Assembly: GCA_008632985.1 (NCBI GenBank)
Contig: QPGO01000197.1
Span: 1 to 64,000, forward strand
From: Psammoneis japonica
Taxonomy: Eukaryota
Direction: 5' to 3'
DNA: 64,000 bases
Part shown: in pieces, positions 4,722 to 28,100 of the stretch
Layout of the letters: each line of letters begins with the position of its first letter
How positions within the stretch are numbered: position 1 is the first letter of the stretch
Notes under the pieces: model-generated
Told to the model about the DNA's origin: nothing
The model's input: only the letters and a program-made list of their open reading frames with translations
The model's database searches: none
Translations under genes and position numbers: made by a program

Positions 4722-7281
4722 AGCAGGACGGACTCCTCGACAGTGTCGTGCGCTGCTCTTCCTACACTGTATGGGTGAATACCATAATATGAAACATCAT
4801 CTTCATCCTGTGCCGAATAGATCCGCGGAAGTGTTTAGTCGTATTGTCGATTTCAGCAAAAGTTGAAAATCGCGCGCTTACATGTCGAACATAGCCCAGC
4901 GTGTCGAAAAGTCAAGGAGTTCTGTTGGTGGTGACCGATCATTCGATGGCTTCTTCGTTTGCTTCTGCGCGCGATTTTTCAACGGAGGCTGAGGCACGTT
5001 CCCACCCCGATAATTTCGGCCGTGAAATAAATATAATTTCGTTCTACACAAAATTCCTGTAGAAACTCTCGTACAAGAAAAATCGCACGTCTGTTTTCCA
5101 TCCGCCAATTTACAGCCGTAATTATCAGCAAATTACGACGACAGGTGTCGGTCGTCGTAAATTCTCTCCCGCAAATATAATTTTCACGGTGAATTCGGCG
5201 TTTTGGGAGCTCGAACGTGCCACGTCACACAAGCCGCCCATTTTTTTTTTCTTTCTCCGCTCCGATCGCACTGGTGGAACCATGATGGCTGCTGCCATGA
5301 ACGGACCCGTTCACACACGAACAACCGTCCTGTCTACGAAGGCAAGAATGCAGAGACAGGTCAATGAGACTGCGCTCGATGCAATCAAGCTGTCACAATT
5401 TTGATTTTCATTGTTGTCATGGCTTGTGACGACCGTGTCGACCAATGGCATTTTTGATGTCTTCGTTTCTCTTGTTCAGATTTTGCACTGGGATTCTTCA
5501 CAAACCACATGTCTGCAGACTTGAGGCCGAATCCTCGCAGCAACACATTGCGATCTGATGTCACACTGAGGTGGCTCTTTGGTGCATGTGCTCAAGGTCA
5601 CTTGGTTGACGGTCAAGAGTCAAGAGTGCAACATTTTGGTCACTTCAACAACAACAAGAAGGCTTGTTGTGATGGAGTGTGACTGTGAAGAAGGCTGTGT
5701 GCACTTGTTTCATCAATCTTGTCGGAAGTTGGGACAATGGCGCCGGTGGGGGTCAATGTTTTGCACAACATCGTCGGCATTGTGCCTCACAGTGCCTTGC
5801 CCTGCTGTCTGGAGGCCTTCTCTGCAACTTGCCATTTGTCACTTTGCTCTTTGAAATGGATCCAGGCCAATGGCAAACTGCAAGAGTTGACAATGGTGCC
5901 TTTTAGCACCTCACATTCTGCAGAAATTACATTTGGCAGTTTTGCATGCTGCAGTCTCACTGCACGCCATTGTTTCGCACGTCCCCCTGATCTCTCTGCA
6001 ACTCTTGCCAGTGGATTGAATGTTGGATGCATTTCTTCTGACCTTCACTGGTGTCATCCTGAGTCTTGGGTTGCCGCAGAGCAGTCGCAAAATGGACAAC
6101 GATTGTCGCTGACAATGTCGTGGTGTCTCTCTGGCTGGCAGCTCTGGCTGCTGGTGGAGAGTGCTGCAGCAGTGCAAACAGTGCTGTGGCGTGCAGCGTC
6201 CTCACCGAGCTCGACATGAGATTTTGATCTTTTTGCCGATCAAATTCGTTCCCAGCCTGATGCCCACAAACGCGCAAATTTGGCCAAATTGTGTTTGTTT
6301 TACGGCCGAAATCATCAGGGTGGGAATGTGCCTGAAGCCAACAATGTGTGATCGCGGATCCATGGAGATCGTGGATCGTTTGGAGCACAGAAGAAATGTG
6401 TGTCGAATGTTGTGCTCCTGACTGCACTCATTGAGAGATCATGTTGCTTGTGCACCAAGATGAGTGTGCCCCTCAGGCATTGGCCAGCCACCACCTTTTG
6501 AGCTTCTCCCCGAAGCTCTTGCTGGGCTGGTGGCTTGATGCCAGTTTTTTTGTGCTTTGCTTTTTCAGCCCCAGCTGTGCTCTGCCAATCTGAGCTGTGC
6601 CTCCTGCATGCTCTTGGCAGCCTCAAGTGCAACACTTGGCTGCTTTTTGAGCACTGCCTCAATGGAGACATGGCTCAATGACAAACTGTGGGCACACCAT
6701 GCGCGACACTGCTGCACTGCTCCTGCAGTCATTTGAGCTTTGTGTGGCCATGTCCAGCCAGCACAGCACATGGCAGCTGCTGAAATTTGCTTGTGGGTGG
6801 TTGGCTGGTTGCGTGCAGGAGAAAATCACCTGATTTTGGCAAACCAAGAGTGCACATGTCCGGGTTCATTCGGTTGCTTTTGACTGCCACGCATGTTGAG
6901 TGTCATCACCATGTGTGTGAAAAGCTGGGCATTTTTGTGGCACATGACATCACAACTTGAACTTGCATCCAATGCACAACGCACAAAATGAAACAAAAAA
7001 AACAAAAAACTGCATTTCCCACTGTGAGGCTTGTTTGTTTGTGTGTTGATGGCAACATCAAAGTGAGAGCATTGTCACACAACAGCCAGACAGTGCTTGA
7101 TTTGATGGCTGTGTCAAATTTGTTGTTGACCCTTGCTGTCATGGGATGTTTGGATGTGCAAACAAACAGAGTGCTTGCTGACTTTTCTGTTGTTCTTGTG
7201 ACCACAGTGTGCACAATTCTGTGAGCACTTGGCTCATTTCCAATTTGCAGATGGCCTGGCATGCATCCAGTGAAAGCGTCT

Positions 7282-7536
7282 GGCCTGTTCCAGCTCCAGG
7301 TGATCCGCTTTTCATCACTCGAAAGGCCGATTTTCTGCGAAGTTTAGCGCAATTAACTCCTTCAATTTTGATCGTTTCGAAAATTGAAAGGTGAGTGCAC
7401 ACCCAAAAACACATGCAAAGTGTGCACTTGCCCTTTGGCAAAAAACGGATTTGGAAAAAGCCAATTGTGCCAAATGCACAAATTGCCAAATGATGGGAAT
7501 CGAACCCGCGCGGAGCACCTGGAGCTGGAACAGGCC
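7282..7536. mobile_element. MITE (family B), 255 bp, 21-bp TIR, 4-bp TSD
   Basis: Perfect TIR GGCCTGTTCCAGCTCCAGGTG...CACCTGGAGCTGGAACAGGCC, flanked by GTCT on both sides (7278-7281 and 7537-7540). A second copy is at 8624. Confidence 0.9.
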
Positions 7537-8623
7537 GTCTGCACTGTTGGCATTGTGGTCTTTTTCTTGTGACGGGCACAGAAAATGACATTTTGGTTTC
7601 CAAGTGAGGCAACAGTTTTGTTGACAACACACCGTCTGTGACTTTTGGCGATGAGCGATGGCACGTCCCAGTTCGCACATGTCTGAGATGGCAACAACAT
7701 CAGATCATCTGTCAAGTCCACAGCGCCAATGCTCATCACTTTAAAAGCCTCGTGCTTGTTGCTTTTTCAACCAACACCTCAGCTGAACTTTTTGTTCCTC
7801 TGCTGACTGCATGATGCAGCAAATGCAATGTGCTTTGTGCTTTTTGTCATGGGACAGCACGGGAACCAAACTGTGCAATGGACAGGAGCTCTGAACCATT
7901 GGCAACCAGATCTGTGATCAGCTTGTTGTGCTCATTCCAAATCCATGATCAAATGGTTTGGAGCAGCTGTCCTTCCTTGCACCTGCATGTCATCCATGCT
8001 GGAGCCAAATTTCCAACCTTTGGACACTCCAACCGGCCAACACCGCCCTTGCCCCAGCAGCTGTCTTTGTGCCTTGGCAGCACAGGACGAGACAGCTGCC
8101 CAAACACATGCCATGTCCCTCCATCTGGTTGTGCACAAATCCAAGACACGTGCTGGCATGACAAAATTTCCATTGTTGTGGCTGGCCAGTTTTGTCTCAT
8201 TTTGTCAATTGCTTGGTGCAAGCCCTGCACACCAGCGCAAAGACAGCCAATCTTGCACACTAAATTGTGGCACACTGTTGCACGTTGACTCACAAGTTAA
8301 CTTGTAAAACACAATCTTGTCAACTGCCACACGTGTTGCTGCCACCACATTGCTCATGCCAAGCATCTCCATCTCACTCCATTTGCAAAACACATGAACA
8401 ATGGTGCCTTCCTTTGCTGTGGCAAGTGAGATTGCCCCCCCCCCCCCCACGTGTGACAAACATTTCCTTCCAATGACTGCTCTTCAACATCACCTCAGAA
8501 CTTGTTTGCCCTGCAAACTCTCCTTTTCTGGCAGCATTTGTGCCATTTCAGTCAACGGGTCAAAGGACGACAATGGCAAACTGCTGCCAATGGGAGAATC
8601 CAAAGAGCTGGGCAGTGCCGCTT

Positions 8624-8882
8624 GGCCTCTTCCAGCTCCAGGTGATCTGCTTTTCATCACTCAAGAGGCCCATTTTCTGCGCAATTTAGTGTGCCAAAGT
8701 CCTTCATTTTTGATCATTTCAAAAATCGAAAGGTGAGTGCACACCCGAAAATGCGTGCAAAGTGCACATTTGCCCTTCAATTTGGCAAAAAACGGATTTT
8801 GAAAAAGTCAATTGCACTGAACCTGAAAATGGCAAATGACAGGAGTCGAGCCCATGCAGAGTGCCTGGAGCTGGAACAGGCT
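8624..8882. mobile_element. MITE (family B), second copy
   Basis: Colinear with 7282-7536. Ends GGCCTCTTCCAGCTCCAGG / CCTGGAGCTGGAACAGGCT. Flanks GCTT / GCTC (one mismatch). Confidence 0.85.
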
Positions 8883-9751
8883 GCTCCCTCTTCCATTGCT
8901 TCGCCTCCCCCCCCATTGAGTTTGTTGCAACGGGGTGTCACTCCAACACAGGGTCCACTCCACAAGTTCAATCGCAACACAATCCCTGGCTGTTGAGATC
9001 CACTCGTGCAGCGGCCCCAGAGAGAGCCACGATTTCATGGCGACACCGCCGTTGTGCCAGCTGCAGAGATGGTGTTTCTCAGAATGCCAGCAGCACCCTG
9101 ACAACGAAGATTTTGTTTCCGACTCATTTGATGATGATGCATCTCCTTTCATCAACCAGGGTGCTGCTGCCATTGTGAAGCCAGGTTGTTTTGCCACACC
9201 GGATCAAGCTGAGCACCTTTCCGCTGACAAAGATTTTGTCGAAGCACACAACAGCGAGACCACTTGTCTGTTGGTGGTTGTCGCGTGTCCCTTTCAAATT
9301 CAAAATTTGCACATGAAACTAAAAGCATTTTGTTGAAAGCACTGGTTTCAAAAACTTTCTTGTTGAAACTGTCCTCAAACTTTGGCATTTGCCAGTGTGA
9401 CTGAAATGAATGGCTCGCAATCGCCATTAGTCTACGACGTGCCGTGCGTCATTTATTCAACAACATGTTGTGCGGCAGGCTGTTCGTCGCGCCAATCAAC
9501 ATCATGTAAATGATCCGTTGCGATGTGTCCGTGTGTGAAGCTTGGGCAATGGGATGAACGTCATTCATTAACATTTTGATCACAGCATGCGTTAAAAGCG
9601 TTATTTCCGACATTTCAGTTTCAACGACTGACTCGACTCGCACTCCCTGCATGCACCTTTTTCACTTTTCCCCGTGCATGCGTGTTTCCCCACTTTTTCT
9701 TAGAATGCACATCGCAATTTCTGAACTCATAAAATAACAACGAAAAGAACA

Positions 9752-11853: not shown

Positions 11854-12970
11854 TATTATGATTCTTCTTCTCCCACTCAACTACGATTTAAAAGCGTCTG
11901 TTGTTGTTGTTGTTACTCTAGAGAGTAGATGTGGCAGTGTGGCATTGTGGATTGATGTGGCTTGTGGCTGTTGTTTTTTGTCCGGTGTGCACGCGCAGGT
12001 GGTGTGTAGAGTGTCGTGGGCGTACAACGGACAGACCGGAGTTTGTTTCAGTCTTCATGCATTCATCTACCGGTGCGTACGATGTCTTTCCTCGTTGCCA
12101 CAAATCTCTGCATCTTTCTTGTTGAAGTGTGGTGGCAAGGCTTCAACTGCAGTTTGCCTTTTGCCTGGTGCACTTCTTTTCCACATGCTGGATTGCCTTC
12201 AAGTTGATGATGTCATCTTTTGAGTTGGCAACACAGCCTGAAAGTCCTGCTCCTGTTTTGAGCTGCCGGGCTCCAGCATCATCTCTCTTTTTGCCTCAGC
12301 TCATGCCAACCCTCCAATTCATTGTCGTTGCATGCCAGTTCCTAATTGTCATTGCATTTGCTGACTGGTTTGCAATGGTCTGACTGCACAGGACAGCTGC
12401 AGTTTGCTGGCTTGTGGCCACAAGCTGGCCTTGATGAACCAGCCCAGAGAAGCGCCAATTTTCGAGTGCCTTTTTTCTCCCACATTCTGCCATGTCACCA
12501 GCCAGTGGTGTCCACAACAGTGCATCATGAAAGTGGCGCACAGCAGGTGGGTGTGGCCAGAGAGGTGTGTTCTCTTGCACATCGTGATTGTGTTGTTTGG
12601 TTGTGAGTGAGTTCTTGGAAGCGGGGGACGTGCAGACAACTTGCAATGTGTTTTGTTCAGAAATGGAGGAAAAAAGTTGAAATGTGAGGGCCCTCTAGCT
12701 GGCAGCTGCTTTGCTTCCTTTTGACTTTCTTGCACTCTTGCTTGATTGGCTCTTGCTGCTTTTCATTGTCGAGCTCTTTTTTTGGAAGCTTTTGTGCTGG
12801 ATGTTGTCGAAGCTGCGCGACGACCAGTCAATGCATCAACAGGCCATTAGGAAATCTTGGAGAAGGGAAGGGGATTGCCCATGTTCTGGAGATGTCCGTG
12901 CTCCTGCACCCCTGCACACAGAGCAGAGTGAAAGAGGACCATGATGAATGTTGGCAGGAGGATCGTCTTG

Positions 12971-13366
12971 GACGCGTTCCAGCCCTAGGTGGGAGCTCGT
13001 AGTGCTGACGTGTGACACAAATAATTTTTATCATCCGTCGTATGTTTCGCACGTAGCTTTCTACGTGTGATATTTAAAAAAAATTGTCCAGACTCGCTGT
13101 TTTGCGAAGCCCCAGACGTTTTATATAACGAATTTATAGAAACAATAATGCGCCAGTTACATTCTTCAATGTCTGAAGAATGTAACTGGCTAAGTAAAAA
13201 ATGATGTACTTCAATCATGGGCGAGTTTGTGCGTTCGCAAAATTGCCTCATTTTCTGTTGGCGATCATTGACATTTTAATTACCGTATAATTTTACTACG
13301 GAGCTCGCACGTAGAAGTCTACGGGCCCAATGTCACACGGATTCCCACCTACGTCTGGAACGCGTC
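12971..13366. mobile_element. MITE (family A), 396 bp, unmutated copy
   Basis: TIR GACGCGTTCCAGcccTAGGTGGGA...TCCCACCTAcgtCTGGAACGCGTC. 4-bp TSD CTTG. Perfect 17-bp internal stem at 13152-13190. TpA-rich. Confidence 0.9.
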
Positions 13367-16318
13367 CTTGACTGTCATTGTCGGGTGGTGCAGAGTGCGC
13401 CAAAAGTTGGATCCTTCCACAGAGGATTCATGCAGGACCATGCAAATTGGATGCCAGAGGTTGTGCAGAAAAAATGCAAAATCCCTGCACTCATCTGTGA
13501 CCAAAACTGGTGGCAAAATTTCCATTCCCAGGATGCAAAACCAGGTGTGACTTGCGGGCAATGCATGACGATGACACCCCTTTGCAAGACTCAGGAAATC
13601 ATGCATCGTCAAAAGATCATCAAGAGAAGATGCAGTTTGACACTCAAAGTGCAATTTCAACCCACGTGTCCACAGATGCCATTGTCTAAAAACCGACATG
13701 TTGCATTTTCCAATTTGGTGCAAAAATGCATTTGTTTGATGACATGAGATTCAAAACTGCACTTTGACCCCCCAAACTGTGTTCCCCTGCAGCCAGGTGC
13801 AGTGCTTGTGACGCTTTGATTCTTCTTTTGTTGTGATGCTTGGCTTTTTGATGAAAACATGGATGAATTGGCTTGGCCAAGCTGAGGGAGTCCCAGTTGA
13901 ATTTGCGCTGAAGTCTGCGGTGCCACAGAAATTGCACACAAACATTTGGCCAGCGTGCTCTGCACTTGACAGGTGTCATTCACCTGGGGGCTGAGTTTTT
14001 GAAAGAGAGAAGGAAGCATGGGAGTTGTGCACAGAGACACCCTGGTTCCTCTTGGGCATGCAAAGAAAGACCTGAGTGAGGGACAGTCAGATCATTTTCA
14101 ACAAAAACAGTTTTTGACCGCAGTGCACCCGGCTTTTGCAGAACGCACTCAGAGGGGGCAAAGAGAGATTGAAACATGAGTCTCTTGCTCAACACACCAC
14201 TGGAGCAATGGTCAGACACTTCTGCAACTGCTGCAGCAACATCAAAAAACAACAAAAACGAGAGCAGCAATGGCTGCCGCAGGTTGTCCAAAGAACAGCA
14301 AGAGCAACAAGAAGGAACATCATGCCGGTGGTGACAGGAGGTCCAAGCACTTCCTGAACAAAAAAAGAGAAAACGGGAGCTTTGTGTCCAATCTTTGATG
14401 CTGCAAAACAAAGTTGCCATTGGGGAGAGCAAGAGCCACCAGTGGATGAGAAATGACAAACATGCGCGAAGAGGCTTTGCAGCGGGCAATGCCGCCTCAC
14501 CTGAAAGCATCTTTGGAGAATCCAAGCAACCATCACTCCATTCCAGGTTTGGTGTCAGCTCTGTGTTCCCCAGAAGACAATGACAAAATCAACAAGACAC
14601 AAGATCAAGGCCAAGTCAAGCAGAAGATGCTGCAGTCCGCTGCGCACTTTCACGGCTCATGCATGCATCCATGAAACTCCCCCATTGCTGTGCATTTGAG
14701 CAAGATTCAAAAGAAAGTTCAAAAGAATGATGGTGAGTTTGTGGCAGACATGAGAAAAGGAGTGAAGTGGACACCACTTGGGTTTGTTGCCAAAGCCTGA
14801 CAAGTGGCACCTTGGGAGCTGCTGGGCATGTGTCTGACTGCCATTGATCATGTCTCCATTGCACTTGCCAGCAAAACATTGTTGTGCATTCTGTGGCAAG
14901 AACAATGCAGGGTCAAAGGGGCTTGTGTTTGGGCCAAGTGTTGAATGGATGAAAACAGCATGGATGCTTTGTCAGCGCGCAGATTTCCTTGATGCTGATT
15001 GTTGTGGGAGGGTGGATGAAGAGGGGAAAAGGGCCAAATCTTTTTGCACTGTTGACCCCTTTGTTTGTCAAGGCTTCCAGCAGTCACTGGGGTCTGGGCA
15101 TGCATGAAAGTGTGGTGTGTTGCTTGGTGCATTTGTGCAATCATTCTATTTTTTTGGGAACATTCTCATCCATGGTGAACAAGACAAGATCTTTTGATTG
15201 CTCTTGATGGCAGCAGCTGAGCTGCTGTGAGAGCCTCCTCAGCTGGGATCCAGTTGAAACCATTGGATGCCATGGACAGCCGCAAGAGTTGCAAAAAGCT
15301 TCGTTGCATTTGTGAACAATGTGTTTGAGCAGCACATGCAGGGATTTTTTTAGTTTGGCCAGGACTCGCAGATTGCAATGGATGTGACATTCAAAAACTG
15401 AAGCAAGACACAGGTGCATCTGAAGGATGGGAGCCAGGTGGTGACAAAGGACAAGATGAAATGGAGCCCTTTTTGAAGTGCATTCAGGTGGCAAGGAAGG
15501 CACAATGTGCCCCAAAGCTCAGTCAACTTGACACCGACAATGCAGGTGCCAACAGTGGCATGTTCAATTGTGTTTTCTCAGGTGTGGGTTGTTCTTGGAC
15601 AAATGCAAAGCTCCAAATGATTTTCTCAGTTGCTCAGTGTGTGCCTGCATTGTTTCTGTGTCTTGTGCAGAGCTGTTGGAAGGTGTCAGCCCACATGTCC
15701 CAAAATCCAACATGCCGGTTCTTTCATTGCCTTGTCAGCATTTTCATCATTTTCAGGATGTGGCCAATGCCAATCAGGTTTTTGAAGAGAATCATGAGGC
15801 AATGGTCAATCTCAATGCCAGCCATCATGGAAAGTGCCGTGGGCTCAACGCAGAGTGGAAGAGAGGGCATGCTGTTGACGAGGGAGCATTGGCTGCAGGT
15901 GCATTTTGAGGGGTTGCCCACAGCAGTTGTTGATGTTCATGCCATGAGGGTCTTTCCCATTTGGTTGAAGTGCATGTTGGAAGATGGGCGGCTTGTTCCA
16001 TGTGGCAGACAAATCAGTGGCAACCTGAGCAGACTTTTGAAGGGTCATGGCATCAATGTCAAAGACCGTTTGGAGACAGCAGTGATTGCAAAGATGCATG
16101 ACAACTGCGGCTCCACTCGTGCAAAGGCTCTTGCAGAGTGAATTTTGATTGTGACATGATTGCTTTGCAAAGAGAAGGGACAAAGGGCTGGTTGTGAGAG
16201 AGCGTCATCTTCCTGCCAACCCAGCTGAGAGATTCTTGCATGTGTGGCAGCCGGCGCCATTGTCCACAAGCTTCTCACAGTGCAGTTGCTGAAACTGGTC
16301 TCTTCTTAACTCCAGGGC

Positions 16319-19150
16319 TTGATTCAGCCACCTGCTGAGCTTGATGTTGCGAAGGTTGGCAGCATGGCTGGCACAATTGGTGTGGAGAACAAGTCATTGC
16401 AAGAGGTGCTGTGGTTGGAATTGGCAGTGGTTGAGCTTGATGTTGTGAAGGTTGGCAGCATGGCAGACACAGTTGGTGGAGGACAAGTCATTGAAAGAGG
16501 TGCTGTGGTTAGAATTGGCAACTGCAGAGGCATGGGAGTTTCCACAAAACATGGCAGTGAGCCAGTGGGCCAAGGAAAAGCTCTGGTCCAAATTGATGAA
16601 GTGTTGTTAGATTCACAGAAGCTGCCACTCAGATTCTCAGATGATGAAGCAGACGAGGAGCCAAACCATGCAAAGGGAAACACAATTGGAGAAGTTTGCA
16701 GAAGAGGCCACTCTGACACTGTTGTGCTCCAGACAAGCCACCTTCAAGTGCCGCCTCCAGAAAAACCCAACTCAGCATTGTCTGTTCTCTTCACTGAAAA
16801 TCATCTTGACTCCAAGGGAAGCTCTGTCTCCTCAGTGCAAAACAATGAAAAGGATTCGGTGGGTCGCACAGAGTCTTTGGCTCAAAACAACAAAACTGCT
16901 GATTTGGCACAAAACAATGAAACTGCAGCATCCGATGCGATCACCAACCCAACCAAAGTCCATGCTGATGCAACAGCATCTGACACAAGTGCAGAGTCAA
17001 ACCAAGCCAAAACAATTGCCAACACATTGGCAATGGCAACACCAAATGAAATTCCAGACATGCTTTCAGACGCATCAAAACTGGATGAAAGCGCCAAGAG
17101 TGAGCTCAGAAGCCGTGCCAAAAATGACACATTTCACATGATGGACGTGCTGCTGGTGTGTCGTGATTGTCCCGTTGTTCCACACTTGTGTGAACTTGCC
17201 CAAGAGCCAACCTTTGTTTGCAATGACAATGACTGCCTCCCACTGTGAGACATGAGAAGTGTTGAAATCAAAAGGTTTCTCTCATGAAGAAATGGAAGAG
17301 TGCAAGCACCACAACAGAGAATGCATTTGAGCACAGGCAAGGATGCCATGTCCTGTCAATGACATGCACACTTCTGATCTTTGTCTTGCACATGAATTGA
17401 TTCATGAGAGCAATGCTTTCAAACAATGCCACACCCCAGAACTTGATGCATGGTTTGTCAGCACAGCAGCAAAGGCCAAGAAAGGTTGGTTTGAACCTGT
17501 GCTGGGTGTTTCAGTTTTGTCAAGAGAAGGCTCCAACTCAGATGGCTTCCGACTGTGGTGGCGTGGCAGCAGAACCAACCAATTAGAAAATTTCACCAGA
17601 AACTTTGGGCACTTCTGGCTGGTCAAGCGACAAGTGTTGAAACAGCCCACCATCTGTTGGCACTTTGAACTTTTCATTGCAATGTCAGTGCTGGTGTGTT
17701 GTGCCATGGCAAGCCCAACCTTGGCCACCCACATCTGTGCACTCTCGATGAGCTGCAGAGTGTCATTCAAAAGTTGTTCAATGTTGTCATGCTTCCCAGT
17801 CACAAGAATCTTTTTCAGACATGAAGCCAACTTGAGCTGATTGGGTTGGTGTTGGAAAGTCCACCCAAGATCCATGATTTGTTGAAAGCTTGGATGAGCC
17901 AGATGAAAGATGAAGTGCTGACACCATCTTTGAAGTTCTTGGCAAAGAGACTTGAGCTGTGACACCTGCTGATTCCCTGCAAAACCAAAGCAGACCATCT
18001 GGTTCAAAAGCAATGGTCGGGCAGCCCAAAAGAAAAACCAAAAGAAACAGACTTTGAGCGGCTCATGATTGTGCACAAAGAGCCATCAAATGGCACAGAC
18101 ATGTTTCCCAAAACCATGTCAATGGTCAAGTTGGAATGGGAAAAGGACAAAACAAGAGACAAGTGCTCAAACATGCAAAGTTGACAATGAAAGCCAAGTG
18201 TGCTGGCATCACTCAGAGTCCATGTCAACAACAGGCTTCTTGCCAACAGAGACATTTGTTTCAGGATTGCACTGGACAATGGGGCGACACAAGTGCTGGC
18301 AGATGAAACCAACTGAACTTGCACAATTGGCAAAACTGATTTGCTGAGGCTGCCGCATGGGGTCTCTGTCAACGTGCTGACTGTGTGGGACTTGTTTCAT
18401 GCTGGTGCACTCATTGATGACAATGTTGTTCAAGGACACTTTAACTTGCTCTGACAGCAATTTTCATGACTTGGCATTTGAGTTGTCAATGCAAATTTTC
18501 ACAAAAGACTGCAGTGGTTCAACTGGGCCAACGTCAATGGATGGGCAAAAGAGCTTGATGGCAAGCGCCTGGAACATGATGGGCGACAGCAGAAGGCACT
18601 CTTGCTGACATCTTCTTGGGATCAAACATGGCCAGCCACTGGCTGAACTCATTTGTTGATTGCTCTTTCAAAGGAGAAGCTGCCACAGCTGGACAGCTTC
18701 TGGTGCATGCAGCCAGCCAGCCTCCAGCCAAATGCCATCTTGCAATGGCTCTGGCAAAAGCTGGTTGCTGTGCCACTGAGTCCAGAAAAGCCGGGTGTCG
18801 AGTGTGTCATTCCTCTGCATGCTGGGCAAGGGCCCAATGATTGTGCTGTTCATTCCTGTGTTAAAGCAGCAGCAGCACATTTAAAAGCACTGGAAAATGG
18901 GACACAGCACACTTGCTGCGATGACATTCAAAAGCCAACAGCGACACTCTCATTCTCTGAAGATTCAGCCTTGGAAGACTGGGTGTGCTTGGGTCATCAT
19001 CACATCTTGCAGAGCTTGTGCAAAGGCAAAATTGATCTTGATGACCTCATTGTCACTGAGACTTCAGCGTCTGTTTGCCTCCCAGGGATTTGGCAATTCA
19101 CGAATGACAGCTGGCTGCCGACAGACCAAGCACATCAAAAAAAGTGAAAT
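16319..19150 (+). pseudogene. Decayed DNA transposon: DxxH-type transposase remnant plus Ulp1-like protease remnant
   Basis: KND(T<I)FHMMD at about 17120, SDGFRLWWRGSRTNQLENF at about 17540, N-x3-HW at about 18625-18642 and QGPNDCAV(H<Y) at about 18830, spread over several frames. Confidence 0.35.
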
Positions 19151-21589
19151 GAGCAAAATGCACATTTTGGCAACCTTTCATGTGTCATCATGTGAAATGC
19201 ACACTTGCAAAACAACACACAAAAGCAAGCACTTTGGTCTGACCTTGTTTGTGCCCCAAACTTTGCAAGCTGCAATCCCACAACACTGCCTGTCATCAAG
19301 GCCATCTCAAGCAAGTGGCCACCAAGATGCCAAGCACAGCAAAAAAAGGGGAGCAAGCAAGATGCTTTTTTGGCACAGTTTGGTGTCACAACACGCACTT
19401 GCAGCACAGTGCAAAATGGAAAACACAACAGCACAGTCTTTCATTGCCTCCCTGTCACAATCCCAGAATCCTGCCCACCATGAGTGCAGTGCAGTGGGGC
19501 TGTCTCAACCTGCTGCCAAGGAGACTGAGCACAGCAAGAAAGGCCTTGTGAGCACAATGCACACCATTTTGGCAAGGCACACAGTGTGCTGTGCTCCATC
19601 ACTGAGTGACACTTGCACCCCCACACAAACCATGCCACACATGATTGTTGCAAAATTGTGTGGAAACTGCCAGGTGTTGCACCATGTCATTGAAAGCAGC
19701 AAGCACAAGAAAGACATGACAGTGAGCAATGAGCTGAGTTGCATGCATGAGCTGACAATCAACTCAACTCAACAAACACAACACATGAAACAGAGCACCA
19801 GTTTTTGCATTGAGTTGAGACTCATCATTTCTGTTGGCACAAAATCAAAACCATGCTGAGCACTCTTGTGCAAGCACAAAGTGCGTTTTGCATCTTCTTG
19901 AGTCAAGCAAAACAGTCCTTGTGGTGACATCTCTCATTTTTCTGGGGTCCACAGCTTGTAAGTGACATGACAGAAATTGCGCCAAACTTCAGATGCTTGT
20001 TGTTCCTGCGAATGTAAGACTCTGCAGAGCCAAGTGTTTGGAAGTTTGAGAGAGCAAGAGCAAGAGAAATGGAAACATTCCATGATCTTAAAGCTCCCAG
20101 CCCATTGCTGTCTCAACACAAACAAACAGTGCAAACAAAACACACAGTTTTTGAAAAGCAGTGACGCCATTTCAAAAAACTCTTTTCAAAAACTCTTCTC
20201 ACTGTTTTTCCTGCAATGAAGAGCGGAGAGTCTCGTGGCTCTTTGCCTCTGGTTCTTTGGAGTCTCTCTCCATTTGCCTCAAGAATCATGCAGAACCTGC
20301 ACAAAATCCTGGCAGGGCAAAGAGAGATTCTCCCCACACATGAACAACACCTGCACTTTCTTCTTTCTTTGACCTGAGAGAATGAGAAGGCAGCAATTTT
20401 CCATGTTTGCAGCCAGACAAAAGGAAATGGAAAAAAGGAGTGGATGACGATGTTTGAGCATTGAAGCAGAAAACACATCCAGGGTCAAAAATGACAATCA
20501 GATTGGGTTGGGAATCTGCTCAACTCAAGCAGCTGCAGATGCAAAGACAGAAGACCCAGTGGCTGTTGTCCACAATGCCTTTGTCCTTTCTTTCCAACAA
20601 AAGAGAAAAAGAGGCCAGTCCTGAAGCCAAAAAAGAGAACACTGCACCCAATGATCAAGAGAGATGGGTGATGATCATGAGGGTGGAGCCAGCTGGTGAG
20701 GAGGACAGCGCTGCCTCTCTGGAGAGAGAGAGCAGCAAATGGAGGGCAAAGGATGCTCAGAGGGAGTCACCATCCTGTCACAGGTTGACCCCGATGCAAC
20801 ACCCAATGACTTCAATTCAGGTGCTGAGTGGCTCATTTGTGAGGCATGTGGCAAGACATGCAAGCAAGCTGAATGCTGGCACTCATCTGGCACCTGAATG
20901 GTGAAACATTGGATGGCTGAACTTGCTGGCAAGAGCGTTGTTGGTGCCAACCAGCACCCCACCCAACACAATGACACAATGCTCTGAACGGCTCCCAAGG
21001 GAAATGATTCATTGAGCTTGGGACATTGGCAGAGCAGCTTCATGGGATCAAGACATGGAAGTGGAACTCAGTCAGGTTTGTCGCGGTGTTCCAGATTGTC
21101 ATCTAAAACAGCGGGTGGGCTGCGGTGTGAAAGGAGCAAAGAAGGACATCAGAACCCCACTCAGCGCCAGACACATGGATGATTGGGAGATGTGGGTGAA
21201 CACAAAATGCTTCTTGAGTGTCTTCCAAAATGCAACTTGCAAGTGATCTCCCCAGCCCACTCGGAAGGACATGACAGGATTTGAGCAGGATTTGGGTGCG
21301 TGCGAAATGTCGCGCTGTTTAGTTCTCTTTAGTTCCGCGTGCACGCGTGCGATGCAGTTTGCTTTCGAGCCACTCGGCTCACAAGAACAATGACAGCAGC
21401 CCGATTGTGCCGACTCACACGTCTTTCGGCTCCTGCAACGGTCTCTGAGCGGAGACTCATCTGCCATTTGGACAGCAGCAAGGAGCCATTGTTTGAGTTC
21501 TTGCCATTTGCCTTCAATTTCTGTCAGATTAACAGTCTTGCTCATTGTCAACCCATTGAGCAACCGCCATCGTCGTCGTTGATTTACCG

Positions 21590-21920: not shown

Positions 21921-21921
21921 C

Positions 21922-22039: not shown

Positions 22040-23202
22040 CGCGCATTCAATACCAAGCATCGGCAGGAATTTAACGTCACCGTCAAGTCTCCTTTACCGC
22101 TGGATATCTGGATTGATTATACTACCTATGATCGCTTAAGACATACATTCAACGGTTATATCCAAGTCTATCCTTGATCCTCATCCCTTTTTATACCCAT
22201 TCAACGGTTAACGGTCAAGAACCCTACATATTCATAGATCTTCGTTGCTGAAGACACACATATATATGTGTCTTCACGGCCAAGAACTTGAACCCACTCT
22301 TTAGACTGCGGCTTTGCTGCCACTCTACAAGCACACCGAGTCTATTGTACCTGATCTACCCCCGACCACTGGTGCTCTACAGTTCTACTAGGTCCACGAG
22401 GATGACTGTAAGAGCAAGTGGCCGTGGTTGCAGCCTGCGTTGGGGCGAGGGTGTTTTCCCGCGTTTGTTCGTTCGTCCACAGCACCTGACGCCTGCGTCA
22501 ACTGGCCAGCCTGATCGGGAAATCCAACCGACATAAAATAAGAACGGTTCGGGGGTCTTGTCCACCTCCAGTCAGCTTGCCTGCAGGGGTTTACAACCCG
22601 CCACTCCGCTCGCAAGCAACCCAAAGCGCCGCCAGCTGCGGGCTCGGACGTGCCGGCACAACTCTACGGACCGGATGGGAAGTTTAGCACTTAACAACAA
22701 ATGGGACAGCACAACCCGACGACTTCTGATTTTAAGATGGTCCAAGATTTCAAGTCAAGTCTGGCTCAAGTCAAGTCTTTTTCAAGCCAAGTTGCAAGTC
22801 AAAACTCCGAGTCAAGACCGCGCTCTAGATTGGCTCCTGTCTTTTGTTTCTACTGCACCGTCCTCCGTCATGGTTCTCACGTGACAGCAACAAACCGAAA
22901 GCTTCAAATACATTCTAGGCACTGTGCTCAATCAAGACGATGACAGCCCTCTTTGTTCTGCTCTGTCCATCAACGGGATTGAATCGTGTGAGGAGTTGTT
23001 CACATTCTTGCCCACCCAAATTGACGCCCTCACTTGCAGAGACGGCGCCAAAGCAGCTCCTTTGCCAGGGACCTGCAGAAACCTCCTGGCAGCTTTGATC
23101 AGCTTCCACTTTGTCAAAGTTTGCAAATAATTCTGCGATTGCCAGTGTTGAACACACCCACGTGTTTTCAGTGCCAGGCTCCCCGTAGAACAGCCGACAA
23201 CC

Positions 23203-25056
23203 ATGGCGTCTCCTTCCGTCGTTGACGGCAGCCATGCCCCTCCTCCTGTCCACAACGCCACCATGGCAGATGACATTGCCGTCGATCAGACTTCTCTTAA
23301 GTCGTCTTCTAAACCAAAAGAGCGTCAGTTTGAAGAGATTGCTCTTCGCTTCAAAATTCGTGGCCCTGCAGCGACATGCAAGCCGATGACTCTTGTCACC
23401 GCCCATTTACAAGTCTTACAGCAGATTCTTTTCACGTGTCATAAAGACGTGCAAATCCTTGACAACCACAACAACCGAATCACGCAAATCAATGTGGCTG
23501 ATTGGATTTCCTCCCTTCAGCACGAATGTCACTTCGTCATCTCCACTGCTCGCAGTGGTGAAAAATGCCCGGTCACCCATCGCTTGTGTCATCGCATTCT
23601 TACAAAGTTGCCGCTTCGCGAAATTCGCTCTCATCCTCATGTTCAAAGCATTTTGGATCTGAATGACATGTGCATGAAACGACACACCTGGAATGAATCA
23701 GTGATTGACACGGCGACACTGGCCTGTTGCATTGCCACCGCTACGAAACATGCTCCAGTCGACGACGCTGCCAAAAAGTTTCTTGGAGATTTGGGTGAAT
23801 TCAAGACCAAGATGCCAAAGTTTCGTCTGGCACCTACGTCAATCCGAGCAGATAACAACAAACTTGCCACTCCCATTCGCACAACGACTTTTGCCATTGA
23901 GGTTCAAAATGATGAGTGTCGCACTGCCGGGAGAGTCTTGTTGCACGCATCTAACAAACTCCCGACCCATGTCGTGATGGCCAAGACCCGTCACCTCTCT
24001 CCCTTGGCCTTCTACAACGCTGTCAAAACTCAAGCCCGCCGCAATGAAAACACATGCATCGTCCCGCTCTTGCACACTTCCCCAGATGTGATGTTCTACT
24101 TCGAACAAAATGTTGGGGCCTTGAAAGGCGTGCAGGACATTTGCGCCTCTAACTCCGCCGACGGGAGGTGCAACATTCTCATCAATCGAGTGGCTTTCAA
24201 GACAGCACGTGCCGCAATTTCCACGTGTGTCATGAATCTCATTCCAGATCTGCCGGAAGAATCTTACCCGACTCCTCCCTTCCCAGATCATCCTCAAGTC
24301 TCAGGCGTTTTTGACAAACCGTCGGAGACCAGCAAATCCATCGTCTCTGCGAGCATTCGCAGTCTCGAATCCCCAACCTTTTTGGACGTTTCTCCTTTGA
24401 CAGACACTCATGCTCCCAGTGCGCATCATCACCCTCCATCGCAATCTCATCCTGGTCGCGGACATGCAGGACGAGGATTCCCCGGTCGAGGTCCTGCGCG
24501 AGGTTCTCCGGTTCCACCTCAGATCTTCACCCCCCTTTCCTCCCAATCTCCGTCGAAACTTGGTCACACTGGACACCCTGGCATGCCGTCTCCCCAATTG
24601 TCTCATGCTCAAGCTGCTCAATCTACGTCAAGTTCCTCTCTTGCTTCAGCTCAGATGGCGGAAGTGCAACAGACGTTATCTCAGATGCAACACAAGAACG
24701 ATCAGGCCCCAGCCGAACTCCGCCAACAGCATTCCAAGGATGTGGAAGCTTTGAATGACACATTCAACAAACAACACACTCAAGACATGGCCACACTTCA
24801 GTCACAATGCTCCCAGCAACTGGCCGCTGTGCAGGACCAAATGAACCAAATAGTTGAACTCCTTCAAGCAAGTCAACCGTCTCAGAGCTCAGCCAGAAAA
24901 CGCCCCAACCATGTGGAAACTCCCGAGCGCCCTGGGGATGACAAAGACAGGGAATCGGATTTTCAGGCAGGGGTTGGATCTCGCCGCCTCCACCCCCTCA
25001 AGAAATTGGGCGTCCTCCCAACATTGTTGCTCGGCTCCACTCACCTCTCACTTTAA
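23203..25056 (+). pseudogene. LINE ORF1 (gag-like; RG-rich segment and coiled coil)
   Basis: Lies upstream of ORF2. GRGHAGRGFPGRG segment and Q-rich coiled coil. Only 3 Tyr in 617 aa. Confidence 0.7.
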
Positions 25057-25168
25057 CTTCCATTTTTCATCGGACCTCTAGATGTCGGCCTTTCTCCTTT
25101 CAACCGAACCTCAAGTTAATGCAGTGCTCTAAGCCTCAGTCTTCTCTTCGGAGGAGCACGGCCCAACC

Positions 25169-28100
25169 ATGAGCAGTGCGATTTCGACTGATGATCCCTC
25201 TCTCACATGGCAGCAAATTCTCGACGGATGCAGCTGTCATCCTCCTGCTGATCGCCGGATCGATTTTTCTCGCCTCAAGATCAATGACCCTGTGGGCCAT
25301 GCACTTCGACCCAAGCTTCCGCATCATGCACGTCTGTGTGCCTTTGACGCCAATGGTTGCAAGTTCGACAAGCGCGGCGGGGACATAAATGAGCACTGTC
25401 AAATTGCTTCGGAAATCCAAGCCAACGTCATCGGCATCTCCGAAGTGTGTCTGGACACTGCCCAATTTGACATTCTCTCTGTTTGCCGTTCCACTGTCTC
25501 CAAATCTCTGCACCACGGGCGATCCACTTTCTCGACCAGCTCCACCACCTTCACTGCTCAACACAAACCAGGTGGTGCGGCTTTGTTGTCTTGCAATTCG
25601 ATGTCAGCACGTTTTCGGACTCAAGAATCAGACCCACTCGGTCAGTGGTCTATTCAAGTTTTCGACGGCAGGAACGGACGCCAAGTGATGTTCATCTCTT
25701 GCTGTCGAGTTTGCGCTAAAAACCAACAACACCCGGGGAAAACAACAGCTCATGCTCAGCAAATGTCTCTTCTCCGACAACAAGGCCGTCAGATCCTCGA
25801 CCCCAGGAAAGCCTTTTGCACCGACTTATCCCGTGTTTTGCAGGACTTTGTGGCAGAACCGAACAGGGAGGTGATCATCTTTGGCGATTTTAACACTGAT
25901 TTCAACTTCGACACAGACTCTTTGGCCACTGTTGCACAACGTTTTGATTTGTCCGACGTTCTGTTTAACATTGTGGGCGACAACGACTTCACTACATGCA
26001 CGAGGGGTTCTAAGCGCCTCGACCATGTGCTTGCCTCACCTGGTGCTCTCGCTGCGGCACGGTTCGGTGGATGCGAAGCTTTTGGTTACAGAGTTGCGTC
26101 TGATCATCGTGCTTGCTTTGTGGATTTTGACACGGTGGCCCTTTTTGGCAATCCCACCGTCGATCTACCCAAGGCATCGTTCCGGGATCTTCAGGCAACA
26201 TCCAAACCTCAGATCACCACTTGTCTTCAAGCCATCGGCCCTGTGATTCAGAGCCGCTCAGTGTTGGAGAGGTCGCGTCAGTCAATTGACCTCGAAACTC
26301 CGAATCATGCGTTGGCAGAATGCCTGGACCGTGATCTTACCCAGTTCTCCCTCGCTGCTGCCAAGAAATGCCGCTCTCACCGCGAACCAGACTGGTCGGC
26401 AGAACTGGCAGATTTGAGACATAGGGTGTGTATCTTTTCACGCCTCGCATCAATGATGCGGACAAAATTAGACTGTGTCTCACAGATTCGGTCGATTCGG
26501 GATAAACTCAGTGGATCCTTTTCCACTCCGGAGACTTTGCAAGAGTGCCAACAAGAGTTGCGTGCTGCTCAGGCAGACTGCAAGCGCTTGGCTGCCGACA
26601 GCGTGGTCCACCGTGAACGGGAGACATCAGAAAAGATGGCAGCACTCGATTTAGAAAACACCAAGGCTTCCCGCAAGCAGGCCACTACATTGCGTGACAT
26701 TCGCAAGGCAGAAGAAATGAAGAAATTGTTTGAGAAGATAGATTCTTGTCGCGCCCAGAAGGACACTGGCACACAGAGTGTACAAGTTCCTCGCAATCCC
26801 TCTGTTCCTCCGAAAGAATGTCAAGACTGGGTTGCCATCGATGCTCCGGAAGACGTGGCAACTGCTCTCCGTCAACGGAATCAGAAACACTTTGGTCAAG
26901 CACACGGCACACCCCCAACAGTCCCTCCACTGTCGGTGGACCTCGGTTGTGAAGGTGATGCGATTATGGCGGATCTCATTCTCAATGGCGAGTGTGACAC
27001 GTCTGCTTTGAATGAAGCAACAGCTCTTTTCATCAAACACTTACGACAACGGTCACCAGCGTCAGTGCCAAACCTCCTTTCTGCCTCAGACCTCGAAGGG
27101 AAAATAAAACGTTGGACAGAAACTGCCACTGCGTCCATGTGTTCTGGACTCCATCTCGGTCATTGGAAGGCAATGCATGCTCCTCATCGATTTTCTGAGG
27201 CTGCGGATTCAGAAGGCAGTCCCACTGTTGATCGTGAGGCCCTCGATGAAGTTCAACACACCCTCATTCAAATCAGGTTGAATTTGCTAAATTGCGCTCT
27301 CCGCTGGGGGTGTTCATTTCACCGTTGGCAAGATGTCGTAAATGTCATGACTTTCAAAGAGCCGGGCAACAACAAGATTCATCGTCTTTGAGTCATCCAC
27401 ACATGCGAAGCTGACTTTCAATTAATCTCGAGCGTCAAGTGGCGTGCTCCAGCTCAAAATGTGGAGCAACGTTGACCACACAATTCTGGGATCTACGGCA
27501 CTCACACTTTCTTAAATGCCAACACTCCCGTGTGCCTTGAAGAACTCATGCTGGAGATCAGCAGAGCTACACGCAAGTCTGCCATTCACAGTGATGACGG
27601 TTGCACTTCGTGCTGCGACAGAAATGTCCTTGCTTTGGTGGCAATTGAAAGCCGCAGCAACGGAATGCCCAAAGAAGTTGCCCAGGTTGCCAGTTCGACT
27701 CTTCACAAGGCTCGATGCTGGTTGCGTGTGGTGCTTGGCCTGTCTCAAGGTTCTCATTCCCATTCCGATGACTTTCCGATTTACGGTGCTGGACAGGGCA
27801 GTGGAAACTCCCCGTTCTACTGGAACCAAATCTGCAACAGTTTGTTTCAGATTTTCGATCAACGTGCACACGGTGCCCATTTCGAGACCCCTGACCGCTC
27901 TCTTTCTCTGCAGATGTTCAATCGTGGATGCGTGGATGACACATCCAAACAGGTGAACGCCTTTTGTGCGTCTCCTCAACCTTGCATTTTGGAGTTGGCT
28001 CTAAAGATGCAGGAGGATAATCAGCCATGGTGTGACCTTTTGAATGCAGCTGGACACGAGTTAGAACTGCCCAAGTGCTCCTTCCACGCAATCGAGTGGA

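What the first reader, a model, noticed from the sequence alone, without database searches (positions are those of the whole stretch)
12090..21580. Surviving TpA sites are almost all YTAR, implying a 5'-TAY target preference
Survivors found by eye in this block (approximate positions): CTAA 12343, CTAG 12696, TTAG 12848, CTAA 13687, CTAT 15147, TTAG 15351, TTAA 16307, TTAG 16510, 16608, 17584, TTAA 18863, 18882, GTAA 19959, 20014, TTAA 20089, CTAA 21104, TTAG 21320, 21330, TTAA 21530. I saw no RTAY. YTAR is the only context in which neither strand presents TAY, so the edited A prefers a 5' T and a 3' pyrimidine. Established: TadA acts on UACG and TadA-derived editors favour TA/YAC contexts. 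The resemblance is suggestive only.
Basis: partly seen in the sequence, partly recalled or inferred. Interest (0 to 1): 0.78.

Follow-up and report, generated by a model that had tools for sequence, protein, structure and literature searches.

The report
Context-dependent TpA hypermutation in diatom repeats
Old mobile-element DNA in this diatom-like genome has lost nearly all its TA dinucleotides to TG or CA, and the few that remain show that the mutating process prefers TA followed by T or C, a signature that could help to find the unknown enzyme.

Summary
Outside a 408-bp unmutated MITE (12965-13372), the block keeps 20 TpA, of which 17 are YTAR and none RTAY. Normal DNA of the window has 16% YTAR and 29% RTAY. 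The bias recurs in the other depleted blocks (15 of 25) and in a half-mutated LINE at 23152-31192, judged against 80 related unmutated loci.

Survival fits a two-strand model in which the rate depends on the base 3' of the A, roughly T 9-13: C 5-7: G 2-3: A 1, in two independent data sets. YTAR is protected about four- to six-fold, not spared.

Survivors alone cannot give polarity. Products can: paralogue pairs 21:6, conserved Tyr codons mostly turned to Cys and tetramer gains all favour A>G at TAY, which equals T>C at RTA.

A hypermutated MITE carrying both TG and CA products points to a DNA-level process. LINE ORF2 shows a suggestive sense-strand bias.

The TadA likeness stops at the 5' T: TAT beats TAC, and TACG is not favoured. 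TpA-only hypermutation is already described in Bigelowiella natans (2026 preprint), so this is a new lineage plus a flanking-base signature.

The parts
12079..12985 (.). Strongly TpA-depleted segment, left part of the finding's block
   Evidence: HMM segmentation: 3 TA (o/e 0.06), CG o/e 0.34; all 3 survivors are YTAR. A contig of run X1 matches 12000-12759 with 0 differences.
12965..13372 (.). Unmutated MITE-like insertion: 30-nt terminal inverted repeats, very deep in run X1, normal TpA content
   Evidence: Inverted repeat I2, 87% complementary. TA o/e 0.86 and CG 1.49 for 12986-13350. Summed contig depth about 57,000 against about 35 beside it.
13351..21529 (.). Main strongly TpA-depleted block, origin not recognisable
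   Evidence: 16 TA in 8179 bp (o/e 0.03), CG o/e 0.24, TG 1.83, CA 1.76. 13 YTAR, 1 CTAT, 2 GTAA. No Pfam, Rfam, Atlas or LINE-profile match. Contigs 2-3% diverged lie on it.
1547..3366 (.). Further strongly depleted segment
   Evidence: 2 TA, o/e 0.02, CG 0.22.
5179..9427 (.). Further strongly depleted segment
   Evidence: 12 TA, o/e 0.04, CG 0.47; 8 of 12 survivors YTAR.
49357..51592 (.). Further strongly depleted segment
   Evidence: 3 TA, o/e 0.02, CG 0.28.
58801..60630 (.). Further strongly depleted segment
   Evidence: 8 TA, o/e 0.07, CG 0.36.
22917..34257 (+). Partly depleted domain (TA o/e 0.15, CG 0.76) that holds a LINE and nested or adjacent repeats
   Evidence: Survivors: 39 YTAR, 34 YTAY, 22 RTAR, 5 RTAY of 100.
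23152..25053 (+). LINE ORF1-like open frame
   Evidence: 634 codons without a stop.
25133..31192 (+). LINE ORF2 (endonuclease; family profile matched over positions 23-1920), 4 in-frame TGA, Tyr codons nearly all changed
   Evidence: Exo_endo_phos match; translation; profile of 35 full-length homologues matches throughout. Tyr 0.35% against 3.16%, Cys 4.41% against 1.76%. Of 19 conserved Tyr columns: 14 Cys, 3 His, 1 Trp, 1 Tyr.
31296..31691 (.). Hypermutated copy of the same MITE, just 3' of ORF2
   Evidence: 74.5% identical to 12971-13366; 25-nt inverted repeats. TA sites of the normal copy read TG or CA here on both strands.
33168..34173 (.). Hypermutated paralogue of the adjacent normal stretch 34413-35472
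   Evidence: 75.7% identity over 1079 columns; products by context.
34413..35472 (.). Unmutated paralogue used as stand-in for the ancestral state
   Evidence: Lies in a normal segment; aligned.

Best explanation
The block is old repeat DNA of a diatom-like alga. A localised mutational process has turned nearly every TpA into TpG or CpA, alongside slower CpG decay. The process acts on genomic DNA and on both strands. Its rate at each TpA depends on the flanks. Read on the strand carrying the mutated A, the target is 5'-T-A-N, with N = T > C > G > A (about 9-13 : 5-7 : 2-3 : 1), and an A at +2 also protects. A site is lost when either strand is hit, so RTAY (good on both strands) vanishes first, YTAY/RTAR next, and YTAR (poor on both) lasts longest. 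That is why the survivors are YTAR.

Shown here: the depletion, the mass balance TA + CG lost = TG/CA gained, the context hierarchy in two independent data sets, the polarity at purine/pyrimidine resolution, and the hit on a DNA transposon on both strands.

Inferred: the chemistry is deamination of adenine to inosine in transiently single-stranded DNA by a still unidentified deaminase aimed at mobile or foreign DNA. The non-template strand would be hit more in a transcribed element. This would be the process reported for Bigelowiella natans.

Confidence that a context-dependent TA>TG/CA DNA mutation process explains the survivors is about 0.9. Confidence that it is adenine deamination is about 0.5. 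The figure given for the whole statement lies between the two.
For: Depletion and mass balance: TA + CG lost about 73.5 per kb against TG gained 72.2 per kb, both strands counted.

Context: 31 of 44 survivors are YTAR and 0 RTAY, against 16% and 29% in normal DNA.

Model: the two-strand Poisson model with a +1-base rate fits with deviance 6.8 and 6.9 on 6 df. It gives A 0.46, C 2.34, G 1.00, T 4.08 for the strong blocks and A 0.15, C 0.99, G 0.44, T 1.89 for the LINE. The likelihood-ratio test against no context gives p = 8e-18 and 5e-11.

Family-matched control: 80 related LINE loci have TA o/e 0.39-0.92 and 16% YTAR; the window's LINE has 0.15 and 39%.

Polarity: paralogue pairs 21:6; Tyr to Cys 14 against His 3 while other conserved residues (Ile and Val aside) are 70-100% kept; LINE YTGY +13.8 per kb against RTGR -0.6; strong blocks YTGY+RCAR 1324 against RTGR+YCAY 860, normal DNA 1332 against 1223.

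TA specificity: A>G at 48 of 130 TA-context A sites against 18 of 236 AA, 20 of 201 CA and 8 of 182 GA.

DNA level: the MITE copy at 31296-31691 has both TG and CA products.

Precedent: de novo A>G/T>C changes only at TpA in integrated viral DNA of B. natans (10.64898/2026.01.13.699255, Results and Discussion read).
Against: Ancestral TA contexts are assumed from normal DNA or from relatives at 30-48% protein identity; no true ancestor of the block is known.

The polarity rests on 38 discriminating sites at R/Y resolution only. Survival data cannot separate a +1 effect on one strand from a -2 effect on the other.

CpG decay also feeds TG/CA and confounds the tetramer gains in the strong blocks.

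In LINE ORF2 the gains are almost all TG on the sense strand: TG 83.7 per kb against 52.7 +/- 9.0 in controls, CA 87.0 against 90.5 +/- 10.7. Tyr codons preceded by a purine went 8 Cys: 1 His. An equal two-strand model does not predict this.

Class-level bookkeeping in the LINE is imperfect: the RTAR loss has no matching gain.

No enzyme was looked for, because no genome is held. The block's origin is unknown. An unmutated MITE sits inside the block, so the process is not acting there now, or the insertion is very recent.
Confidence: 0.65

Rival explanations
1. The mutated base is the thymine, not the adenine. T>C at 5'-R-T-A arises from an enzymatic thymine modification or a T:G mispair-prone lesion in marked repeat chromatin. 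On duplex DNA this gives exactly the same changes.
For: A>G at TAY and T>C at RTA are the same event seen from the two strands. Every count fits both. TpA, like CpG, is self-complementary, which would suit a maintained mark, and both decay in the same blocks.
Against: No such T>C pathway tied to TpA is known to me (recalled, not searched). In ORF2 the change sits on the sense strand as A>G. If the LINE is transcribed, that is the exposed non-template strand, as for single-strand deaminases. This is an inference.
Confidence: 0.15
2. Retroelement RNA is edited A-to-I at UAY before reverse transcription, so copies are born mutated. The pattern would be RNA-level editing recorded in DNA.
For: In LINE ORF2 nearly all gain is TG on the sense strand with no CA gain. 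Tyr became Cys 14 and His 3. The depleted domain starts near the LINE's 5' end.
Against: The MITE copy (a DNA transposon derivative) at 31296-31691 and the paralogue at 33168-34173 carry both TG and CA products with the strand chosen by context (Fisher p = 0.007). All strong blocks show both YTGY and RCAR excess. In B. natans the mutations arise in integrated single-copy DNA during culture. For ADAR-type editing, the 3' G preference that I recall is opposite to what is seen here.
Confidence: 0.08
3. Error-prone patch repair: T:G mismatches from 5-methylcytosine deamination in methylated repeats recruit a pol-eta-like polymerase that miscopies T in TA.
For: CpG decay and TA decay share the same blocks. 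Pol eta is error-prone on template TW, and in immunoglobulin genes A mutations are two-fold more frequent than T on the coding strand (PMC6423074, passages), which recalls the ORF2 bias.
Against: The pol eta hotspot is WA, but AA/TT is not depleted (o/e 1.17 normal, 1.28 strong). A>G at AA is 8% against 37% at TA. In the young LINE the TA loss is far ahead of the CpG loss (TA o/e 0.15, CG 0.76), so it cannot depend on CpG deamination events. Differences to sister copies are 531 transitions to 75 transversions.
Confidence: 0.04
4. No hypermutation: either a compositional oddity kept by selection, or a systematic base-calling or assembly error at modified TA sites.
For: A base-caller error at a modified TA would also depend on context. 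Whether the assembly and run X1 are independent is unknown.
Against: A contig of run X1 matches the depleted stretch 12000-12759 with 0 differences, and contigs diverged by 2-3.5% cover the block and the LINE. CpG decay, four in-frame stops and loss of conserved Tyr in an otherwise conserved ORF2 show a decayed element. The blocks have no recognisable coding function on which selection could act.
Confidence: 0.03

Closest known systems
TpA-restricted hypermutation of integrated NCLDV/virophage DNA in Bigelowiella natans (Mettrop et al., bioRxiv 10.64898/2026.01.13.699255; abstract, Results and Discussion read)
   Same: Only A:T>G:C transitions, only at TpA, giving TpG/CpA. Confined to blocks of foreign or mobile DNA. 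Long-term trace is TpA depletion with CpA+TpG enrichment, with reverse-transcriptase and endonuclease ORFs among the depleted genes.
   Different: The organism here is diatom-like (Stramenopila), not a chlorarachniophyte. The targets seen are a LINE, a MITE and unidentifiable relics, not viral inserts. Depletion is far deeper (o/e 0.02-0.07 against 0.45 for their NCLDV region). The preprint's main text gives no flanking-base analysis ('flank', 'trinucleotide', 'logo' and 'downstream' occur 0 times; 'motif' 4 times and 'upstream' once, none on the bases flanking TpA). Its supplements could not be read. No de novo mutations are observed here, only the long-term trace.
TadA / ADAT2-type adenosine deaminases and TadA-derived base editors
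   Same: A>I (read as G) with a 5' U/T before the target A. Evolved TadA works on single-stranded DNA. ADAT2 is the candidate proposed in the B. natans preprint.
   Different: Wild-type TadA depends on UACG, and TadA-8e shows 'UA' with no downstream preference (PMC12296453, passages). Here +1 T > C, G and A are 2-10 times slower, and surviving TAC sites are TACA/TACG (41 of 47, both strands counted). No enzyme was identified or tested.
Repeat-induced point mutation (RIP) of fungi
   Same: Dinucleotide-specific transition hypermutation that inactivates mobile DNA in sharply bounded blocks.
   Different: As I recall, RIP is C>T mostly at CpA and creates TpA, the opposite direction. It is duplication-triggered and premeiotic. 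Here a very deeply covered MITE copy is unmutated while another copy, nested by a LINE, is mutated, so copy number alone does not set the target.
ADAR hyper-editing of retroelement RNA fixed by retrotransposition
   Same: Clustered A>G on the sense strand of a retroelement, as in ORF2.
   Different: Both strands and a DNA transposon are hit. The TA requirement is strict. The 3' preference is T/C, not the G that I recall for ADARs.
Pol eta WA-motif mutagenesis in somatic hypermutation
   Same: A:T mutations at TA with more A than T changes on the coding strand (PMC6423074, passages).
   Different: AA is not targeted, transversions are few, and TA loss is not tied to CpG loss.

Membership tests
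TpA-specific hypermutation as described in B. natans | Changes are A:T>G:C transitions restricted to TpA | tested here: met
   TA + CG loss equals TG/CA gain. A>G at 37% of TA-context A sites against 4-10% in AA, CA and GA contexts. Only Tyr is lost among conserved residues of ORF2.
TpA-specific hypermutation as described in B. natans | Confined to blocks of foreign or mobile DNA with TpA depletion and CpA+TpG enrichment | tested here: met
   Seven sharply bounded segments. A LINE and a MITE are identified in one. The strong blocks are unidentified but covered by diverged sister contigs.
TpA-specific hypermutation as described in B. natans | Arises de novo in genomic DNA during vegetative growth, at about 1000 times the background rate | not testable with these tools
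   Needs mutation-accumulation lines or population resequencing of this organism.
TpA-specific hypermutation as described in B. natans | Same flanking-base signature | not testable with these tools
The main text gives no flank analysis.
TadA-like substrate signature (UACG) | 5' U/T before the target A | tested here: met
TadA-like substrate signature (UACG) | C at +1 as the best context | tested here: not met
   Fitted rates: T 4.08 > C 2.34 (strong blocks) and T 1.89 > C 0.99 (LINE).
TadA-like substrate signature (UACG) | G at +2 favoured | tested here: not met
   Surviving TAC sites have +2 = A 23, C 3, G 18, T 3, against control 242, 167, 180, 173 (both strands counted). TACG is over-represented among survivors, not under-represented.
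Fungal RIP | C>T at CpA creating TpA; all copies of a duplication are hit | tested here: not met
   The direction is TA>TG/CA. One of two adjacent paralogues and one of two MITE copies is unmutated.
RNA-level A-to-I editing fixed by retrotransposition | Sense-strand-only A>G, confined to retroelements | tested here: not met
   A MITE copy and a paralogue show both TG and CA products. ORF2 alone looks sense-biased.
Pol eta WA signature | AA as well as TA mutated, with transversions | tested here: not met
   AA o/e 1.17 in normal DNA and 1.28 in strong blocks; A>G at AA 8%. 531 transitions to 75 transversions against sister contigs.

The most novel reading that the evidence does not exclude
Diatoms (Stramenopila) and chlorarachniophytes (Rhizaria) share an uncharacterised genome defence. 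A DNA adenine deaminase is aimed at mobile and viral DNA and writes a fixed signature: strict 5' T, +1 T > C > G > A, +2 A protective, both strands, with a lean to the non-template strand of transcribed elements. It is not TadA-like in its downstream preference. It works several times faster than CpG methyl-decay. It is guided by element or chromatin identity rather than copy number, since a very deeply covered MITE escapes unless it is nested by a targeted LINE.
Probability: 0.35. Interest if true: 0.88.

Novelty: new member of a known kind. Interest (0 to 1): 0.7.

Why it matters
TpA-only hypermutation has so far been reported once, in a 2026 preprint on a rhizarian alga, with no enzyme and no flanking signature in its text. 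Finding the same trace far more deeply written in a diatom-like genome suggests that the process is widespread among SAR algae and shapes their repeat landscape.

The quantitative signature (TAT > TAC > TAG > TAA, with A at +2 protective) and the hint of a strand bias give a direct biochemical test for candidate deaminases. They also give a yardstick for the preprint's de novo mutations.

There are practical consequences too. Such blocks carry few TAA/TAG stops, are rich in TGCA and CATG, and escape homology-based repeat annotation.

Tried and rejected
No whole genome is held for this window, so no repeat-family consensus analysis and no search for a deaminase gene were possible.

Identity of the main block: Pfam on 29 stop-to-stop ORFs at E up to 0.1 gave only chance-level rows. 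Rfam gave no match in the window. ESM Atlas on the 324-aa ORF gave a best score of 0.77, with nothing usable. A profile of 35 full-length LINE homologues found only the one LINE, and tblastn of the LINE proteins found no other copy in the window.

Read laying on run X1 printed only 40 of 606 differing places, too few for a context analysis. Most printed ones in the block are CpG-related or TG-versus-CA doublets. X1 may be the source sample and is not independent.

The idea that the two GTAAG survivors are kept splice donors was dropped. All six GTAA survivors read TGTAA. They are better explained as leftovers of TATAA, where editing of the first TA changed the context of the second.

Equal TG and CA counts in the strong blocks were first read as proof of equal strand hits. 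This was rejected, because LINE-like ancestors have CA well above TG on the sense strand.

Searching the scan's earlier notes gave nothing. Cluster look-up gave no organism names.

Literature searches found no report of TpA hypermutation in diatoms. This covers only the held library.
Full report
WHAT THE WINDOW IS. The window is eukaryotic and gene-dense, with long ORFs: RING finger, ankyrin, LRR, class-3 lipase and an ATG1/ULK kinase. The kinase domain at 42607-43533 is 78% identical to a protein labelled Amphora coffeaeformis and 84-85% identical to unnamed environmental proteins. The DUF4461 protein at 35511-36944 has only diatoms among its named relatives, at 37-40% identity. No hit reaches 100%, so this is a diatom-like stramenopile whose proteins are not in the searched collection. 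It is not Bigelowiella natans. No whole genome is held.

THE OBSERVATION. A two-state HMM on TpA density cuts the window into sharply bounded segments. There are six strongly depleted segments: 1547-3366, 5179-9427, 12079-12985, 13351-21529, 49357-51592 and 58801-60630. They have TA obs/exp 0.02-0.07, CG 0.22-0.47 and TG and CA 1.5-1.9. One partly depleted domain, 22917-34257, has TA 0.15 and CG 0.76. Normal DNA has TA 0.48-0.86 and CG about 1.

In 12090-21580 there are 49 TpA. It is a MITE-like element with 30-nt terminal inverted repeats (12965-13372). The other 20 are 17 YTAR, 1 CTAT and 2 GTAA, with no RTAY.

Normal DNA of the window has 213 of 1307 YTAR (16%) and 380 of 1307 RTAY (29%). 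Fisher tests give p = 5e-11 for the block and p = 1e-14 for all strong segments (31 of 44 YTAR, 0 RTAY). For the four strong segments outside the finding (15 of 25) p = 1.4e-6.

IT IS MUTATIONAL. Taking normal DNA as the starting composition, the strong segments lost about 36.6 TA and 36.9 CG sites per kb and gained 72.2 TG (both strands counted). This is a near-perfect mass balance.

The partly depleted domain holds a LINE. ORF1 is 23152-25053. ORF2 is 25133-31192, has an Exo_endo_phos endonuclease domain and four in-frame TGA, and is matched along its whole length by a profile of 35 full-length homologues.

Against 183 homologues (33, 150), ORF2 has Tyr 0.35% against 3.16%, Cys 4.41% against 1.76% and His 4.06% against 4.11%. 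In columns where at least 60% of at least 10 homologues agree, most residue types are 70-100% kept (Ile 10 of 16, Val 3 of 4). Tyr is the exception: of 19 columns, 14 are Cys, 3 His, 1 Trp and 1 Tyr. The same test on two normal homologues keeps 17 of 20 and 14 of 19 Tyr.

80 related LINE loci from metagenomes have TA o/e 0.39-0.92, and none approaches 0.15. A>G changes between paralogues occur at 48 of 130 A sites preceded by T. The figures are 18 of 236 after A, 20 of 201 after C and 8 of 182 after G. AA/TT is not depleted (o/e 1.17 in normal DNA, 1.28 in strong blocks). So the process is TA-specific transition hypermutation. It runs much faster than CpG decay, since the young LINE has TA 0.15 while CG is still 0.76.

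THE CONTEXT RULE. Relative to normal density, survival in the strong blocks is about 0% for RTAY, 3% for YTAY, 4% for RTAR and 25% for YTAR. This is what a two-strand model predicts if each strand's rate depends on the base 3' of its A.

A Poisson fit over the 10 strand-symmetric tetramer classes gives gY/gR = 4.3 for the strong blocks, 6.0 for the finding's block and 5.1 for the LINE against the family control. It gives 3.9 for the strong blocks against the family control. The likelihood-ratio test against no context gives p = 8e-18, 3e-12, 5e-11 and 4e-18 respectively.

A four-base model fits better and well (deviance 6.8 and 6.9 on 6 df). It gives the same order in two independent data sets with different controls. 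The strong blocks give A 0.46, C 2.34, G 1.00, T 4.08. The LINE gives A 0.15, C 0.99, G 0.44, T 1.89. That is roughly T 9-13 : C 5-7 : G 2-3 : A 1.

Survivors are also rich in A (47% against 31%) and poor in T (14% against 27%) at +2 (both strands counted, so the p value is optimistic). Typical survivors sit in T-run/TA/A-run settings.

All six surviving GTAA read TGTAA. My reading, not tested, is that they are the rest of TATAA, where editing of the first TA changed the context of the second.

POLARITY. Three product-based tests decide it at purine/pyrimidine resolution.

(i) Two paralogue pairs have one copy in depleted DNA and one in normal DNA: 33168-34173 against 34413-35472, and the MITE copies 31296-31691 against 12971-13366. 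Taking the normal copy as reference, YTAY gave TG 12 and CA 3, and RTAR gave CA 9 and TG 3. That is 21:6 for A>G at TAY (binomial p = 0.006, Fisher p = 0.007).

(ii) Conserved Tyr codons (columns at least 50% Tyr) preceded by a pyrimidine became Cys 9 and His 2.

(iii) In the LINE, where CpG decay is minor, YTGY rose by 13.8 per kb and RTGR by -0.6 against the sense-oriented family control. In the strong blocks YTGY+RCAR is 1324 against RTGR+YCAY 860, while normal DNA gives 1332 against 1223.

Together the discriminating sites are 30:8 (p = 5e-4). A>G at TAY and T>C at RTA on the partner strand remain the same event on duplex DNA.

DNA LEVEL, AND A STRAND BIAS. The MITE is a DNA-transposon derivative. 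Its copy next to the LINE carries both TG and CA products, with the strand chosen by context. All strong blocks show both YTGY and RCAR excess. That argues for a process on genomic DNA and against editing of a retroelement transcript.

LINE ORF2 looks one-sided. TG is 83.7 per kb against 52.7 +/- 9.0 in 51 control loci, while CA is 87.0 against 90.5 +/- 10.7. The gains sit in NTGC and NTGT. Tyr codons preceded by a purine, where both strands offer TAY, went 8 Cys: 1 His (p = 0.04). I take this as a suggestive bias towards the sense, presumably non-template, strand. It is worth about two standard deviations and is not established.

The other MITE copy lies unmutated inside the strongly mutated block, and the family is very deep in run X1. 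So copy number alone does not make a target. Either the process has stopped on the old block or that insertion is very recent.

RUN X1. A public run holds 41% of the sampled words of 22000-31999. One of its contigs matches 12000-12759, which runs into the depleted DNA, without a difference. Other contigs on the block and the LINE differ by 2-3.5%. Over all laid contigs the differing places are 531 transitions and 75 transversions. The printed examples include TG-against-CA doublets, as expected for independent hits on one ancestral TA or CG. This speaks against an assembly artefact, but the run may be the source sample.

COMPARISON WITH WHAT IS KNOWN. A 2026 preprint reports a 1000-fold local hypermutation in integrated NCLDV and virophage DNA of B. 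natans mutation-accumulation lines. It involves 230 of 231 A>G/T>C changes, all at TpA, together with TpA-depleted ORFs enriched in reverse transcriptase, endonuclease and DDE domains. It proposes an ADAT2-like DNA adenine deaminase (10.64898/2026.01.13.699255; abstract, Results and Discussion read). Five full-text searches found no such report for diatoms.

The present case therefore fits that kind in a second, distant lineage. It adds much deeper depletion, a flanking-base hierarchy and a possible strand bias.

Here TAT outruns TAC, and TACG is over-represented among surviving TAC sites.

Pol eta's WA hotspot (PMC6423074, passages) is not met, because AA is untouched. RIP runs the opposite way (recalled). 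ADAR-type editing is excluded for the MITE and does not fit the 3' preference that I recall for ADARs.

VERDICT. The best explanation is a DNA-level, TpA-specific A:T>G:C mutator aimed at mobile DNA, most likely an adenine deaminase acting on exposed single strands. Its sequence preference is now quantified. The main limits are assumed ancestral compositions, few polarity sites, an unidentified main block and no access to the genome or to an enzyme.

Noticed in passing
window 12965-13372 and 31296-31691: A roughly 400-bp MITE-like element with 25-30-nt terminal inverted repeats. One copy is unmutated inside the strongest depleted block. The other is hypermutated beside the LINE. Summed contig depth in run X1 is in the tens of thousands, against about 35 on unique DNA.
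   Followed up: partly
window 21530-22916: A stretch with normal TpA content between two depleted domains. It has the highest summed depth in run X1 (about 129,000), a perfect 59-bp tandem duplication at 21922-22039, and several alternative joints (21588/21589 to 21921-21989) in the run's contigs. It is probably another very abundant repeat.
   Followed up: no
window 33168-34173 and 34413-35472: Adjacent paralogous stretches, 76% identical. The upstream one lies inside the hypermutated domain and the downstream one (ORF 34308-35294, no Pfam match) in normal DNA. The domain boundary at about 34257 falls between them.
   Followed up: partly
window 32186-32643: An array of about 10 copies of a 42-bp unit (higher-order periods 84, 126 and 165) inside the partly depleted domain, overlapping ORFs on both strands.
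   Followed up: no
window 1721, 8305, 19959, 20015, 50462, 59129: All six surviving GTAA sites in the strong blocks read TGTAA. Nine of eleven surviving TAC (either strand) are TACA. This is compatible with leftovers of TATA(A), where the first edit changed the neighbour's context.
   Followed up: partly
protein P0351: One of the 183 database homologues of the LINE ORF2 has Tyr 0.19% and Cys 3.26%, and has lost 5 of 6 conserved Tyr (2 Cys, 2 His, 1 Trp). It is possibly another hypermutated copy in public data; its organism is unknown.
   Followed up: partly
window 42607-43533 and 43582-45840: The ATG1/ULK kinase domain is split over two adjacent + strand ORFs separated by about 50 bp, probably by a short intron.
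   Followed up: no
whole window, normal segments: Even 'normal' DNA has TA obs/exp of only 0.48-0.62 in the long segments. In the strong blocks AT falls to 0.79 and GC rises to 1.28, as expected if ATA, TAT and TATA are converted (TATA to TGCA).
   Followed up: partly
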